NCBI RefSeq assembly: GCF_046105845.1
Contig: NZ_CP151004.1
Origin: Escherichia coli
GTDB lineage: Bacteria > Pseudomonadota > Gammaproteobacteria > Enterobacterales > Enterobacteriaceae
Strand: one strand, 5' to 3'
DNA length: 64,000 bases
Under the pieces are notes generated by a model, which saw only the letters and a list, made by a program, of their open reading frames with translations, did no database searches and was not told the DNA's origin. The position numbers and the translations under genes were made by a program. Position 1 is the stretch's first letter. Each line of letters starts with the position of its first letter. This document shows positions 2,772 through 59,521 of the stretch, in pieces.

Positions 2772-3911
2772 ATGGTTTTGCAATCCACGCGCTGGTTGGC
2801 GCTCGGCTATTTCACATACTTTTTTAGTTACGGCATTTTTCTACCTTTCTGGAGCGTCTGGCTTAAGGGGATTGGTTTAACGCCAGAAACCATCGGCCTG
2901 TTATTGGGGGCAGGTCTGGTTGCCCGTTTTCTCGGGAGCTTGCTCATCGCGCCCCGCGTCAGCGATCCTTCTCGCCTGATTTCCGCCTTGCGCGTGCTGG
3001 CACTGCTGACACTTCTCTTTGCTGTCGCCTTCTGGGCGGGGGCGCACGTAGCGTGGCTGATGCTGGTGATGATTGGCTTTAACCTCTTTTTCTCACCGCT
3101 GGTACCGTTGACCGATGCACTGGCGAATACGTGGCAAAAGCAGTTCCCGCTTGATTACGGCAAAGTGCGATTGTGGGGCTCGGTAGCGTTTGTCATTGGC
3201 TCGGCGCTGACGGGCAAACTGGTCAGTATGTTTGATTATCGGGTGATCCTCGCGCTGTTGACGTTGGGCGTGGCATCCATGCTGCTCGGCTTTCTCATCC
3301 GTCCGACGATTCAGCCACAAGGGGCAAGCCGCCAGCAGGAGAGCACCGGTTGGTCTGCGTGGTTGGCGTTGGTTCGCCAGAACTGGCGCTTTCTGGCCTG
3401 CGTTTGTTTATTGCAGGGGGCGCATGCGGCCTATTACGGTTTTAGCGCCATTTACTGGCAGGCTGCTGGCTATTCGGCCTCGGCGGTGGGCTATTTGTGG
3501 TCGCTGGGCGTGGTGGCGGAAGTCATTATCTTTGCGCTGAGTAATAAACTTTTCCGCCGTTGTAGTGCACGCGATATGCTGTTGATCTCAGCGATTTGCG
3601 GCGTAGTGCGCTGGGGCATTATGGGAGCAACTACGGCGTTGCCGTGGTTGATAGTGGTGCAAATTCTGCATTGTGGCACCTTCACGGTCTGCCACCTGGC
3701 CGCCATGCGCTATATTGCCGCTCGCCAGGGTAGCGAAGTCATCCGTTTACAGGCGGTTTACTCTGCCGTCGCGATGGGCGGCAGTATCGCTATCATGACC
3801 GTTTTCGCCGGTTTCCTGTATCAATATCTGGGCCACGGCGTGTTCTGGGTGATGGCGCTGGTGGCGCTTCCGGCAATGTTTTTGCGCCCGAAAGTTGTTC
3901 CCTCATGCTGA
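2772..3911 (+). CDS. hcaT: MFS transporter (3-phenylpropionate transporter)
   Basis: 379-aa highly hydrophobic ORF adjacent to hcaR. Confidence 0.9.
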   Translation: MVLQSTRWLALGYFTYFFSYGIFLPFWSVWLKGIGLTPETIGLLLGAGLVARFLGSLLIAPRVSDPSRLISALRVLALLTLLFAVAFWAGAHVAWLMLVMIGFNLFFSPLVPLTDALANTWQKQFPLDYGKVRLWGSVAFVIGSALTGKLVSMFDYRVILALLTLGVASMLLGFLIRPTIQPQGASRQQESTGWSAWLALVRQNWRFLACVCLLQGAHAAYYGFSAIYWQAAGYSASAVGYLWSLGVVAEVIIFALSNKLFRRCSARDMLLISAICGVVRWGIMGATTALPWLIVVQILHCGTFTVCHLAAMRYIAARQGSEVIRLQAVYSAVAMGGSIAIMTVFAGFLYQYLGHGVFWVMALVALPAMFLRPKVVPSC

Positions 3912-36389: not shown

Positions 36390-36440
36390 AGCATTTTTTG
36401 CAAAAAGGGGTAGATGCAATCGGTTACGCTCTGTATAATG
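36390..36440 (+). promoter_or_regulatory. guaBA promoter (UP-element-like A/T tract plus -10 TATAAT)
   Basis: TATAAT at 36434-36439 preceded by GCATTTTTTGCAAAAA A/T-rich tract; ~45 nt upstream of guaB start. Confidence 0.6.
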
Positions 36441-51500: not shown

Positions 51501-52138
51501 TTACTCGTCGGCAGCGTAGCCCTGCGGCGGCAGACGTTGACCATCCAGCCACGCGGCGTTTTCGTGCATTTTCAGACGACCATCGGCAAACCAGCTAATC
51601 ACCAGTGGATAAATAGCGTGTTCCTGGGTTTGCACGCGGGCGGTGATGTCATCTTCCGTATCACCAGCAAATACCGGGACTTTCGCCTGTAAAATAACCG
51701 GGCCACCGTCCAGTTCATCGGTGACGAAATGCACCGATGTACCGTGCTCCTCATCGCCATTTTCCAGCGCCTGACGATGGGTGTGTAATCCGGGATATTT
51801 CGGCAGCAGAGAAGGGTGAATGTTCAGCAAACGCCCGGCATAGTGGGAGACAAACGCCGGGCTGAGAATGCGCATAAAACCAGCCAGCACGACCACATCT
51901 GGTGCGTACATGTCGATTTCATGAATCAACTCCCGGTCATAGGCTTCACGACTGTCAAACGCGCTGGCGATGAGCGTATGCGTTGCAATACCCGCCTGGC
52001 GGGCGCGTTCAAGGCCGAACGCGTCGGCCTTATTGCTGAAAACTGCCCGTACGGTGCCTTTAATTTTGTTGGTTTTGCAGGCGTCAATAATTGCCTGCAA
52101 ATTACTTCCGTTGCCGGAAATAAGCACCACAATATTCA

Positions 52139-52139
<1 letters not shown>
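51501..52139 (-). CDS. purN: phosphoribosylglycinamide formyltransferase
   Basis: 212 aa; folate-binding motifs; overlaps purM stop. Confidence 0.95.
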
Positions 52140-53194
<1,055 letters not shown>

Positions 53195-53239
53195 TTACTT
53201 GCGGTAGAAAAATAAAATTCGGCGCAATTCTAACAGGGA

Positions 53240-53255
53240 AAGCAAACGTTTGCGA
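53240..53255. promoter_or_regulatory. PurR operator (PUR box) in purMN promoter region
   Basis: AAGCAAACGTTTGCGA: near-perfect palindrome matching the PurR consensus core GCAAACGTTTGC; ~65-80 bp upstream of purM start. Confidence 0.75.
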
Positions 53256-53500
53256 GACTGCTTTACACAACCTTTTTGTACGTCTTTTCCCCAGGCGCGC
53301 GGCAAAACAATACTTGTACCAGGGCAAAGGATCGTTTTCGGATGGAATAATCTTCTTCCATAACCATTTGAATATAAAATAACTTTATCTCAAACCGTTA
53401 TCATTTTGACTAAAGTCAACGAAAATAATATTGCCGCCTTGAAGAAAGGAGGTATAATCCGTCGATTTTTTTTGTGGCTGCCCCTCAAAGGAGAAAGAGT

Positions 53501-54127
53501 ATGAAGATCGTGGAAGTCAAACACCCACTCGTCAAACACAAGCTGGGACTGATGCGTGAGCAAGATATCAGCACCAAGCGCTTTCGCGAACTCGCTTCCG
53601 AAGTGGGTAGCCTGCTGACTTACGAAGCGACCGCCGACCTCGAAACGGAAAAAGTAACTATCGAAGGCTGGAACGGCCCGGTAGAAATCGACCAGATCAA
53701 AGGTAAGAAAATTACCGTTGTGCCAATTCTGCGTGCGGGTCTGGGGATGATGGACGGTGTGCTGGAAAACGTTCCGAGCGCGCGCATCAGCGTCGTCGGT
53801 ATGTACCGTAATGAAGAAACGCTGGAGCCGGTACCGTACTTCCAGAAACTGGTTTCTAACATCGATGAGCGTATGGCGCTGATCGTTGACCCAATGCTGG
53901 CAACCGGTGGTTCCGTTATCGCGACCATCGACCTGCTGAAAAAAGCGGGCTGCAGCAGCATCAAAGTTCTGGTGCTGGTCGCTGCGCCAGAAGGTATCGC
54001 AGCGCTGGAAAAAGCGCACCCGGACGTCGAACTGTTTACTGCATCGATTGACCAGGGACTGAACGAGCACGGATACATTATTCCGGGCCTCGGCGATGCC
54101 GGTGACAAAATCTTTGGTACGAAATAA
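53501..54127 (+). CDS. upp: uracil phosphoribosyltransferase
   Basis: Start at [10 protein letters not shown] (208 aa); PRPP-binding motif [12 protein letters not shown]. Confidence 0.95.
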
Positions 54128-54212: not shown

Positions 54213-55502
54213 ATGACGCGCCGTGCTATCGGGGTGAGTGAAAGACCGCCACTTTTACAGACAATCCCGCTTAGTTTGCAACATTTGTTCGCCATGTTTG
54301 GTGCAACCGTCCTGGTGCCCGTCTTATTTCATATTAACCCGGCGACTGTACTGTTATTTAACGGTATAGGAACACTGCTGTATCTCTTCATCTGTAAAGG
54401 GAAAATTCCGGCTTATCTTGGTTCCAGCTTTGCCTTTATTTCACCGGTATTGTTACTGTTGCCGTTGGGGTATGAAGTCGCGCTGGGCGGCTTTATTATG
54501 TGCGGCGTGCTGTTCTGCCTGGTTTCTTTTATCGTGAAGAAAGCGGGGACCGGCTGGCTGGACGTGCTGTTTCCACCTGCGGCAATGGGCGCAATCGTTG
54601 CCGTCATCGGTCTGGAGCTGGCGGGCGTAGCTGCCGGTATGGCAGGTTTACTCCCGGCTGAAGGGCAAACTCCAGACTCCAAAACCATCATCATCTCCAT
54701 TACCACGCTGGCGGTTACGGTTTTAGGTTCCGTGCTGTTTCGTGGTTTCCTGGCAATTATCCCGATTTTAATTGGCGTGCTGGTGGGCTACGCGCTCTCT
54801 TTCGCAATGGGAATTGTCGATACCACGCCGATTATTAATGCTCACTGGTTTGCGCTGCCAACTCTCTATACGCCGCGCTTCGAGTGGTTTGCCATTCTGA
54901 CTATTCTGCCAGCGGCGTTAGTGGTTATTGCCGAACACGTAGGGCACCTGGTGGTAACGGCTAATATCGTCAAAAAAGATCTGCTGCGCGATCCTGGTCT
55001 GCACCGTTCGATGTTTGCTAACGGCTTGTCGACCGTGATCTCCGGCTTCTTTGGCTCCACGCCAAATACCACCTACGGGGAAAACATTGGCGTGATGGCG
55101 ATCACCCGTGTTTACAGTACCTGGGTTATCGGCGGGGCAGCGATTTTCGCTATCCTGCTTTCCTGCGTCGGTAAACTGGCTGCTGCTATCCAGATGATCC
55201 CATTGCCGGTGATGGGCGGCGTTTCGCTGCTGCTTTATGGTGTCATCGGTGCTTCCGGTATTCGTGTTTTGATCGAATCGAAAGTGGATTACAACAAAGC
55301 ACAGAACCTGATCCTGACTTCCGTGATTTTGATCATCGGTGTCAGCGGCGCGAAGGTAAACATCGGCGCGGCGGAGCTGAAAGGTATGGCGCTGGCGACC
55401 ATCGTCGGTATCGGCTTAAGTTTGATCTTCAAACTGATTAGTGTGCTGCGCCCTGAAGAAGTGGTGCTGGACGCAGAAGACGCGGATATAACAGACAAAT
55501 AA
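54213..55502 (+). CDS. uraA: uracil:H+ symporter (NCS2 family)
   Basis: Start at [10 protein letters not shown] (429 aa); polytopic membrane protein. Confidence 0.93.
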
Positions 55503-55596: not shown

Positions 55597-56298
55597 CTGA
55601 ACACACCGGCACAGCTCTCTTTGCCACTTTATCTTCCTGACGACGAAACCTTTGCAAGTTTCTGGCCGGGGGATAACTCCTCTTTACTGGCCGCGCTGCA
55701 AAACGTGCTGCGTCAGGAACATAGCGGTTACATCTATCTCTGGGCACGCGAAGGCGCGGGGCGCAGCCATCTGCTGCACGCGGCTTGCGCGGAATTGTCG
55801 CAGCGTGGCGATGCGGTGGGCTATGTCCCGCTGGATAAACGCACCTGGTTTGTTCCGGAAGTGCTCGACGGTATGGAGCATTTGTCGCTGGTCTGTATCG
55901 ACAACATTGAGTGTATTGCAGGCGATGAGTTGTGGGAGATGGCGATTTTCGATCTCTACAATCGAATTCTGGAATCGGGCAAAACACGGTTGTTGATCAC
56001 CGGCGATCGTCCACCGCGGCAGTTGAATCTGGGATTACCGGATCTCGCGTCGCGACTCGACTGGGGGCAGATCTACAAATTGCAGCCACTTTCTGATGAA
56101 GATAAGTTGCAGGCGCTACAGTTACGCGCGCGTTTGCGTGGTTTTGAACTGCCGGAAGATGTGGGGCGTTTCTTGCTGAAGCGGCTCGACAGAGAAATGC
56201 GCACGTTATTTATGACGTTGGATCAGCTGGATCGTGCGTCGATTACCGCGCAACGTAAGCTGACCATTCCGTTTGTGAAAGAGATTCTGAAACTGTAG
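55597..56298 (+). CDS. hda: DnaA-inactivating AAA+ protein Hda, with non-canonical CUG start
   Basis: In-frame CTG at 55597 gives (M)[15 protein letters not shown], 233 aa; the ATG at 55552 gives a 15-aa extension. Confidence 0.8.
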
Positions 56299-58459: not shown

Positions 58460-59521
58460 ATGCTCGAAATGTTGATGCAATGGTATCGCCGCCGTTTTAG
58501 CGACCCGGAAGCGATTGCCTTGCTGGTTATTTTAGTTGCCGGATTTGGCATTATCTTTTTCTTTAGTGGCCTGCTTGCTCCACTGTTGGTGGCTATTGTG
58601 CTGGCCTATTTGCTGGAATGGCCAACCGTGCGCCTGCAATCTATTGGCTGCTCCCGCCGCTGGGCGACGTCGATTGTATTGGTGGTTTTCGTCGGTATAT
58701 TGCTACTGATGGCGTTCGTGGTATTGCCTATCGCCTGGCAGCAGGGCATCTACTTAATTCGCGATATGCCGGGGATGCTCAATAAGCTTTCTGACTTTGC
58801 CGCCACGTTGCCGCGCCGCTATCCGGCGTTGATGGATGCGGGCATTATTGATGCAATGGCCGAAAATATGCGCAGTCGGATGCTGACCATGGGCGATTCG
58901 GTGGTGAAAATTTCCCTCGCCTCGCTGGTCGGTTTGCTGACCATTGCCGTCTATCTGGTGCTGGTACCATTGATGGTCTTCTTCCTGCTGAAAGACAAAG
59001 AGCAGATGCTGAACGCCGTTCGCCGGGTGCTGCCACGTAACCGTGGACTGGCAGGACAGGTGTGGAAGGAGATGAATCAACAAATCACCAACTATATCCG
59101 CGGCAAAGTGCTGGAGATGATCGTGGTGGGGATTGCCACCTGGCTGGGATTCTTACTCTTCGGGCTGAACTATTCGCTGCTGCTGGCTGTGCTGGTCGGC
59201 TTCTCGGTACTTATTCCGTACATTGGCGCATTTGTGGTGACCATTCCGGTGGTTGGCGTGGCGCTATTCCAGTTTGGTGCTGGCACGGAATTCTGGAGCT
59301 GCTTCGCGGTGTATCTGATCATTCAGGCGCTGGACGGCAACCTGTTAGTACCTGTGTTGTTCTCCGAAGCGGTTAACCTGCATCCGCTGGTCATTATTTT
59401 ATCAGTAGTGATCTTCGGTGGTTTGTGGGGATTCTGGGGCGTATTCTTCGCCATTCCATTGGCGACGCTGATCAAAGCCGTGATCCACGCCTGGCCCGAT
59501 GGGCAAATCGCGCAAGAATAA
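58460..59521 (+). CDS. perM: AI-2E/PerM family membrane permease
   Basis: 353 aa polytopic membrane protein. Confidence 0.88.
   Translation: MLEMLMQWYRRRFSDPEAIALLVILVAGFGIIFFFSGLLAPLLVAIVLAYLLEWPTVRLQSIGCSRRWATSIVLVVFVGILLLMAFVVLPIAWQQGIYLIRDMPGMLNKLSDFAATLPRRYPALMDAGIIDAMAENMRSRMLTMGDSVVKISLASLVGLLTIAVYLVLVPLMVFFLLKDKEQMLNAVRRVLPRNRGLAGQVWKEMNQQITNYIRGKVLEMIVVGIATWLGFLLFGLNYSLLLAVLVGFSVLIPYIGAFVVTIPVVGVALFQFGAGTEFWSCFAVYLIIQALDGNLLVPVLFSEAVNLHPLVIILSVVIFGGLWGFWGVFFAIPLATLIKAVIHAWPDGQIAQE

What the first reader, a model, noticed from the sequence alone, without database searches (positions are those of the whole stretch)
53240..53255. PUR box operator upstream of purMN, in the purM/upp divergent region
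AAGCAAACGTTTGCGA is a near-perfect palindrome matching the PurR consensus core and lies ~65-80 bp upstream of the purM GTG start in the 325-bp divergent purM/upp spacer, consistent with purine repression of purMN.
Basis: partly seen in the sequence, partly recalled or inferred. Interest (0 to 1): 0.25.

Follow-up and report, generated by a model that had tools for sequence, protein, structure and literature searches.

The report
Known PurR operator of E. coli purMN

Summary
The observation and the interpretation both hold. Window 53240-53255 reads AAGCAAACGTTTGCGA, which is TCGCAAACGTTTGCTT on the purM strand. The window is E. coli. The site lies in the 324-bp upp/purM divergent spacer, 64-79 bp upstream of the purM GTG.

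- **Published site:** the 16-mer is letter for letter the motif reported under the purM-purN PurR ChIP-chip peak. It is also the site whose deletion reduced the protective effect attributed to PurR titration.
- **Matrix score:** a weight matrix built from the other 27 published PurR motifs gives 17.3-18.2 bits (p about 3-7e-7 per position, about 2-5e-4 hits expected in the spacer).
- **Conservation across species:** among 120 purM loci chosen without reference to the box, all 10 Enterobacterales and all 4 Vibrio have a strong box at the same place. About 100 other lineages do not.
- **Conservation within E. coli:** the box plus -10 segment is identical in 5330 of 5424 genomes. A control segment of the same spacer is identical in only 202.
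- **Position:** the box lies exactly 7 nt upstream of an invariant extended -10 (TGnTAGAAT) and covers the -35 position, which fits repression by promoter occlusion.

Novelty: already known. Interest: low.

The parts
53240..53255 (-). PUR box, the PurR operator of purMN: TCGCAAACGTTTGCTT on the purM strand. The central 12 bp form a perfect palindrome with the CpG at the centre.
   Evidence: Sequence. Exact match to the published ChIP-chip motif. Published deletion of the site. Leave-one-out matrix score 17.3-18.2 bits. TCGCAAACGTTTGC is invariant in 12 of 12 Enterobacterales sequences.
53227..53235 (-). Extended -10 element of the purM promoter: TGTTAGAAT (TGn + TAGAAT), lying 7 nt downstream of the box.
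   Evidence: Invariant as TGnTAGAAT in all 17 aligned Enterobacterales, Vibrio and Aeromonas sequences. It was inferred as the promoter from conservation and consensus. The simple two-hexamer scan missed it because the -35 is weak.
53250..53255 (-). Weak -35-like hexamer TCGCAA (3 of 6 matches to TTGACA), 17 nt upstream of TAGAAT and lying entirely inside the PUR box.
   Evidence: Read directly from the sequence. This is an inference and was not tested experimentally here.
53219..53219 (-). Predicted purM transcription start (an A, after the 7-nt GC-rich discriminator TGCGCCG). This places the box centre at -28.5 and gives a 43-nt leader.
   Evidence: Predicted from the -10 position. It is consistent with the statement in PMC3266220 that the PurR site is '28 nucleotides upstream'. 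I did not see a primary experimental transcription start.
52139..53176 (-). purM coding sequence (345 aa, GTG start), the first gene of the repressed purMN operon.
   Evidence: ORF. Annotation in E. coli genomes (K-12 b2499, 1038 nt).
51501..52139 (-). purN coding sequence (212 aa), the second gene of the operon. Its start overlaps the purM stop by one base.
   Evidence: ORF. K-12 annotation b2500.

Best explanation
This is the PurR operator (PUR box) of the E. coli purMN operon. When purines are plentiful, hypoxanthine or guanine binds the PurR dimer as corepressor. The complex then binds this 16-bp near-palindrome. The box spans about -36 to -21 from the purM transcription start. It covers the weak -35 position and most of the spacer, and ends 7 nt from an extended -10 (TGnTAGAAT). 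Bound PurR therefore keeps RNA polymerase off the promoter and lowers purMN transcription.

Shown here or in the papers read: the identity of the sequence, in vivo PurR occupancy that rises with adenine, matrix strength, conservation, and a fixed distance to the -10.

Inferred or taken from established knowledge: the exact transcription start, promoter occlusion as the mechanism, and the corepressor chemistry.
For: Exact identity to the motif under the purM-purN PurR ChIP-chip peak, with log2 enrichment 2.08 with adenine and 0.98 without.

The same sequence is named as the PurR site of the upp-purM spacer. Deleting it from a multicopy plasmid reduced the protective effect, and a chromosomal purR deletion raised survival, as expected if the plasmid works by titrating PurR.

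Leave-one-out matrix score of 17.3-18.2 bits, p 3-7e-7 per position. The two other ChIP-defined PurR motifs in this window (guaBA at 36414-36429 and yfgO/yfgC at 58505-58520) appear among the top hits, which makes them positive controls, though only for the first scan: they were in the training set, while the fully out-of-window matrix was used only to score this site and count hits at least as good.

In 120 purM loci chosen only by a coding-sequence pattern, 10 of 10 Enterobacterales scored 18.5-20.4 bits and 4 of 4 Vibrio scored 15.8-18.5 bits, all at the same offset. Aeromonas scored 12.0. The other loci with enough upstream sequence, about 100, scored 8 or less, apart from one Shewanella at 11.2 bits in a different position.

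The alignment shows TCGCAAACGTTTGC and CTGnTAGAAT as invariant islands in sequence that otherwise cannot be aligned. The gap from box to -10 is exactly 7 nt in 12 of 12 Enterobacterales, although leader length varies from 35 to 46 nt.

Within E. coli, the 43-bp box plus -10 segment is identical in 5330 of 5424 genomes. A control 43-mer from the same spacer is identical in only 202.

A 2024 review uses purMN as its worked example of E. coli PurR repression.
Against: Nothing substantive.

I could not read the primary 1990 binding paper (He et al., PMC213288 is not held) or any primary mapping of the transcription start. The promoter position therefore rests on conservation, consensus and a secondary statement.

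At the scale of the whole window the matrix score alone is not overwhelming: 5-20% of simulated 64-kb sequences contain an equal or better hit. A coding-sequence look-alike in uraA also scores as high with the asymmetric matrix.
Confidence: 0.97

Rival explanations
1. The palindrome arose by chance in an AT-rich spacer and has no function.
For: 5-20% of first-order Markov simulations of a 64-kb window contain a matrix hit at least this good. The core GCAAACGTTTGC with up to one mismatch is expected 0.49 times per shuffled window. A look-alike of similar score occurs inside uraA.
Against: Only 2-5e-4 hits are expected in this particular spacer. The site is invariant across Enterobacterales and Vibrio at a fixed distance from the -10, and is almost invariant in 5424 E. 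coli genomes while the neighbouring spacer is highly polymorphic. PurR occupies the site in vivo. The uraA look-alike, by contrast, is lost to synonymous changes in the same genomes.
Confidence: 0.005
2. The site is the operator of a different LacI/GalR-family repressor with a similar CG-centred palindrome (for example RbsR, CytR, GalR/GalS or Cra) rather than of PurR.
For: LacI-family operators share the same architecture. The atomistic study in PMC2577325 notes that GalR/GalS sites are not well separated from PurR sites by computed binding energy.
Against: [quoted passage not shown] The site scores within the range of true PurR sites with a PurR-only matrix. The ChIP used PurR specifically and occupancy rose with adenine. 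The downstream genes are purine-biosynthesis genes. I did not score the site with matrices for other family members.
Confidence: 0.01
3. The box mainly regulates the divergent gene upp, or both genes, rather than purMN alone.
For: The site lies in a shared divergent spacer, and PurR is known to control some pyrimidine genes (codBA, pyrC, pyrD and carAB).
Against: The box centre lies about 217 bp upstream of the upp start region (the upp -10 is at 53453-53458), which is too far for occlusion. The box is locked at 7 nt from the purM -10 in every Enterobacterales genome examined. Cho et al. assign the peak to purM-purN only. upp has its own documented controls.
Confidence: 0.015

Closest known systems
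The E. coli K-12 purMN PUR box itself (He et al. 1990; Cho et al. 2011 Table 1, motif TCGCAAACGTTTGCTT)
   Same: The 16-mer, the extended -10, the discriminator and the leader are identical between the window and K-12. The gene order upp / purM / purN is the same.
   Different: Nothing in the functional elements. The window comes from another E. coli lineage with several substitutions in the distal, non-conserved part of the spacer.
Other promoter-overlapping PurR operators of the pur regulon (purF, purHD, purL, purEK, purC, purT)
   Same: The same 16-bp CG-centred palindrome. Cho et al. describe the location as generally between the -35 and -10 elements, with repression at transcription initiation.
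   Different: The purMN box deviates from the idealised palindrome at the two outer positions (T at position 1 and T at position 15), but it has a perfectly symmetric 12-bp core.
Intragenic 'roadblock' PurR sites of purB and purR
   Same: The same protein and the same motif.
   Different: Those sites lie downstream of the promoter, inside the transcribed or coding region, and block elongation. The purMN site lies upstream of the predicted start and overlaps the promoter.
Vibrio and Aeromonas purM PUR boxes (found here)
   Same: The same core CGCAAACGTTTGC and the same extended -10 TGnTAGAAT.
   Different: The gap from box to -10 is 18 nt in 4 of 4 Vibrio and 23 nt in Aeromonas, against 7 nt in Enterobacterales. 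The box is therefore centred near -39.5 or -44.5 instead of -28.5.

Membership tests
PurR (LacI/GalR-family) operator = PUR box | 16-bp imperfect palindrome matching ACGCAAACGTTTGCGT with a central CpG | tested here: met
   14 of 16 matches and a perfect 12-bp core. Leave-one-out matrix score 17.3-18.2 bits, within the range of the 27 published sites.
PurR (LacI/GalR-family) operator = PUR box | Bound by PurR in vivo, with binding enhanced by purine supply through the corepressor | not testable with these tools
   Taken from the literature: a ChIP-chip peak at purM-purN with this exact motif, log2 2.08 with adenine and 0.98 without. Published plasmid deletion experiment.
PurR (LacI/GalR-family) operator = PUR box | Located at or overlapping the promoter of a purine or nucleotide-metabolism gene | tested here: met
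   The box ends 7 nt upstream of the conserved extended -10 of purM and covers the -35 position. purM and purN identity is confirmed by annotation. The transcription start is predicted, not measured.
PurR (LacI/GalR-family) operator = PUR box | Conserved upstream of the orthologous gene in lineages known to use this repressor, and absent elsewhere | tested here: met
   10 of 10 Enterobacterales, 4 of 4 Vibrio and 1 of 1 Aeromonas (weaker) are positive. None of the other loci, about 100, has a box at that position. Which lineages encode PurR was not checked here and rests on prior knowledge.
PurR (LacI/GalR-family) operator = PUR box | purR-dependent repression of the downstream operon | not testable with these tools
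   Cited as established (He et al. 1990 and Meng et al. 1990). The primary papers could not be read.

The most novel reading that the evidence does not exclude
The only mildly new point is comparative. The purM PUR box is locked at 7 nt from an invariant extended -10 in Enterobacterales, but it sits 11 bp further upstream (one helical turn) in Vibrio and 16 bp further in Aeromonas. This could mean the repression geometry differs between lineages: spacer and -35 occlusion in one, and -35 or upstream contact in the other. A conserved GC-rich discriminator would add ppGpp/DksA sensitivity. This may already be described in comparative-regulon studies that I could not check.
Probability: 0.15. Interest if true: 0.15.

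Novelty: already known. Interest (0 to 1): 0.04.

Why it matters
For discovery purposes it does not matter. This is a textbook operator, characterised in 1990 and confirmed genome-wide in 2011. Its value here is as a calibration point. The contrast with the uraA coding look-alike shows how conservation at synonymous positions separates a real operator from a motif that arises by accident.

Tried and rejected
(1) The exact 16-mer search allowing up to 3 mismatches was uninformative: 1 hit found against 1.22 expected. I replaced it with a weight-matrix scan.

(2) The simple sigma-70 scan found only the upp promoter and missed the purM promoter, because the purM -35 is weak. The promoter was recovered from the conservation of TGnTAGAAT.

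(3) The primary operator paper (He et al. 1990, PMC213288) is not held, and the supplements of Cho et al. are not held. I therefore obtained no primary footprint or transcription-start data.

(4) The K-12 RefSeq record annotates only coding sequences here and no binding-site feature.

(5) An Rfam scan of the spacer at E <= 1 found nothing, so no known structured RNA explains the palindrome.

(6) The uraA intragenic hit was considered as a possible unreported PurR roadblock site and rejected as probably incidental. It has no ChIP peak, and in 5 of the 10 other Enterobacterales loci examined it is lost to synonymous changes while the peptide GAIVAV stays invariant; a sixth locus, E. albertii, has a single synonymous change that leaves the motif at 13.7 bits.

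(7) I did not use protein-search, structure-prediction or fold-search tools, because the feature is a DNA operator.

Full report
**Observation.** Window 53240-53255 reads AAGCAAACGTTTGCGA on the + strand and TCGCAAACGTTTGCTT on the - strand. The central 12 bp, GCAAACGTTTGC, form a perfect palindrome centred on CpG. The two outer positions on each side are not symmetric. The site matches the idealised PurR palindrome ACGCAAACGTTTGCGT at 14 of 16 positions.

**Context.**
- A 901-bp stretch around the site is 100% identical to several E. coli chromosomes and is present in 5425 of 5426 complete E. coli genomes, annotated as upp and purM.
- purM runs on the - strand. By comparison with K-12 b2499 (1038 nt), its GTG is at 53176, and purN follows it.
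- upp runs on the + strand with its ATG at 53501.

**Is it more than chance?** I built a log-odds matrix from the PurR motifs in Table 1 of Cho et al. 2011, leaving out the purMN entry.
- The site scores 17.3 bits with the matrix as listed and 18.2 bits with it symmetrised. With the symmetrised matrix it is the best hit in the 64-kb window.
- The exact score distribution gives p = 3-7e-7 per position. That corresponds to 0.04-0.09 hits expected per window under an independent-base model, 0.09-0.24 in first-order Markov simulations, and 2-5e-4 in the 324-bp spacer.
- The next hits include GCGTAACCGATTGCAT at 36414-36429, upstream of guaB, and CCGGAAGCGATTGCCT at 58505-58520, in the yfgO/yfgC region. 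Both are ChIP-defined PurR motifs in Cho et al., so they act as positive controls, with the caveat that both were in the training set for that scan. Excluding all three in-window sites from the matrix left this site's score essentially unchanged, at 17.6 and 18.6 bits.
- The whole-window statistic is modest on its own. Location and conservation carry the argument.

**Published evidence.**
- Cho et al. 2011 (PMC3159470) list a PurR ChIP-chip region for purM-purN with the motif TCGCAAACGTTTGCTT, identical to this site. Enrichment was log2 2.08 with adenine and 0.98 without.
- Liu et al. 2011 (PMC3266220) cloned the upp-purM spacer and identified CGCAAACGTTTGCTT as its PurR site. Deleting AAACGTTTGCTT reduced the protective effect that they attribute to PurR titration.
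- A 2024 review uses purMN as its illustrated example of E. coli PurR repression, with hypoxanthine and guanine as corepressors.
- The primary 1990 paper was not available to me.

**Conservation across species.** I scanned the species-level genome collection with a degenerate DNA pattern for the PurM peptide [11 protein letters not shown], so that loci were chosen without reference to the box (120 loci). I then scored the 324 bp upstream of that anchor in each locus.

| Group | Loci | Best score (bits) | Offset from anchor |
|---|---|---|---|
| Enterobacterales (Escherichia albertii, Citrobacter, three Enterobacter, Superficieibacter, Rahnella, Providencia, two Photorhabdus) | 10 of 10 | 18.5-20.4 | -95 to -106 |
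| Vibrio | 4 of 4 | 15.8-18.5 | -107 to -109 |
| Aeromonas | 1 | 12.0 | -116 |
| All others with enough upstream sequence, about 100 (Pseudomonas, Burkholderiales, Campylobacterales and others) | 0 | 8 or less | one Shewanella at 11.2 bits, at -321 |

The alignment shows TCGCAAACGTTTGC and CTGnTAGAAT as invariant blocks in sequence that otherwise cannot be aligned.

**Conservation within E. coli.** A 43-bp segment covering the box and the -10 is identical in 5330 of 5424 genomes. A control 43-mer from the distal spacer (53290-53332) is identical in only 202. It is below 95% identity in 2874, and 778 genomes give no match to it at all.

**Anatomy and mechanism.**
- Seven nucleotides downstream of the box lies TGTTAGAAT (53235-53227), an extended -10 element. 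It is invariant from E. coli to Aeromonas.
- The position 17 nt upstream of TAGAAT is TCGCAA, a weak -35 with 3 of 6 matches, and it lies entirely inside the box.
- With a 7-nt discriminator (TGCGCCG), the predicted start is the A at 53219. That centres the box at -28.5 and has it span -36 to -21. This agrees with the '28 nucleotides upstream' stated in PMC3266220. It also fits the general statement that PurR sites lie between the -35 and -10 elements and act on initiation.
- The gap from box to -10 is exactly 7 nt in 12 of 12 Enterobacterales sequences, while leader length varies from 35 to 46 nt. The box is therefore tied to the promoter, not to the start codon.
- The inferred mechanism is promoter occlusion by the PurR-corepressor dimer. 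The protein-DNA details (helix-turn-helix contacts, hinge helices in the minor groove at the central CpG, and DNA kinking) are established knowledge from the PurR-operator crystal structures and were not tested here.

**Rivals.**
- Chance is excluded by conservation and ChIP.
- Another LacI-family repressor is unlikely, given the PurR-specific ChIP, the adenine response and the PurR-matrix score. I did not score the site with other family matrices.
- Regulation of upp from this box is unlikely. The box is about 217 bp from the upp start region and is locked to the purM -10.
- No Rfam family matches the spacer.

**Verdict.** The feature is already known, and interest is low.

Noticed in passing
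window 54589-54604 (- strand ACGGCAACGATTGCGC), inside uraA codons 126-131: A PurR-matrix hit as strong as the purMN box with the asymmetric matrix (18.2 bits; 14.8 symmetrised). It lies within the uraA coding sequence and is not among the ChIP regions of Cho et al. The 16-mer is kept in Escherichia, Citrobacter and two Enterobacter (E. albertii has one synonymous change that leaves it at 13.7 bits). It is lost to synonymous changes in five other Enterobacterales although the peptide GAIVAV is invariant, so it is probably a by-product of the coding sequence.
   Followed up: yes
window 53406-53419: A perfect FNR-type palindrome, TTGACTAAAGTCAA, in the same spacer nearer to upp. It is published as an FNR site whose deletion also reduced the protective effect of the plasmid (PMC3266220).
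   Followed up: partly
window 53431-53473: The upp promoter (TTGCCG, 16 nt, TATAAT) is followed by GATTTTTTTTG with a run of eight T at 53466-53473. From my own knowledge this is the region of UTP-sensitive start-site switching and reiterative transcription that controls upp. It was not tested here.
   Followed up: no
window 53220-53235: The purM promoter is of the extended -10 type (TGnTAGAAT) and has a GC-rich discriminator, TGCGCCG. The extended -10 is invariant from E. coli to Aeromonas; the discriminator is kept in most enteric sequences and, with a different first base (AGCGCCG), in Vibrio, but not in Providencia or Photorhabdus. A GC-rich discriminator suggests sensitivity to ppGpp/DksA, which is unverified.
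   Followed up: partly
L033, L047, L052, L108 (Vibrio) and L077 (Aeromonas), upstream of purM: The PUR box sits 18 nt from the -10 in all four Vibrio and 23 nt in Aeromonas, against 7 nt in all Enterobacterales. The Vibrio shift is 11 bp, about one helical turn.
   Followed up: partly
window 36414-36429 and 58505-58520: Two further published PurR ChIP motifs lie in the window: the guaBA box just upstream of guaB, and the yfgO(perM)/yfgC(bepA) box. Both appear among the top hits of the matrix scan, although both were in that matrix's training set.
   Followed up: partly
L122 (E. coli strain MEW, NZ_CM192120.1), locus 2788-3485; corresponds to an insertion upstream of window ~53385: An IS1B-family element is inserted in the upp-purM spacer of this ivory-gull isolate, between upp and the purM promoter. 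The PUR box and the purM promoter remain intact.
   Followed up: partly
window 56124-56139, inside hda: A weaker PurR-matrix hit, ACGCGCGCGTTTGCGT (13.4 bits), within the hda coding sequence. It has no ChIP support and is probably chance.
   Followed up: no
901-bp query window 52900-53800: One of the 5427 matching places lies on a plasmid record rather than a chromosome. It was not examined.
   Followed up: no
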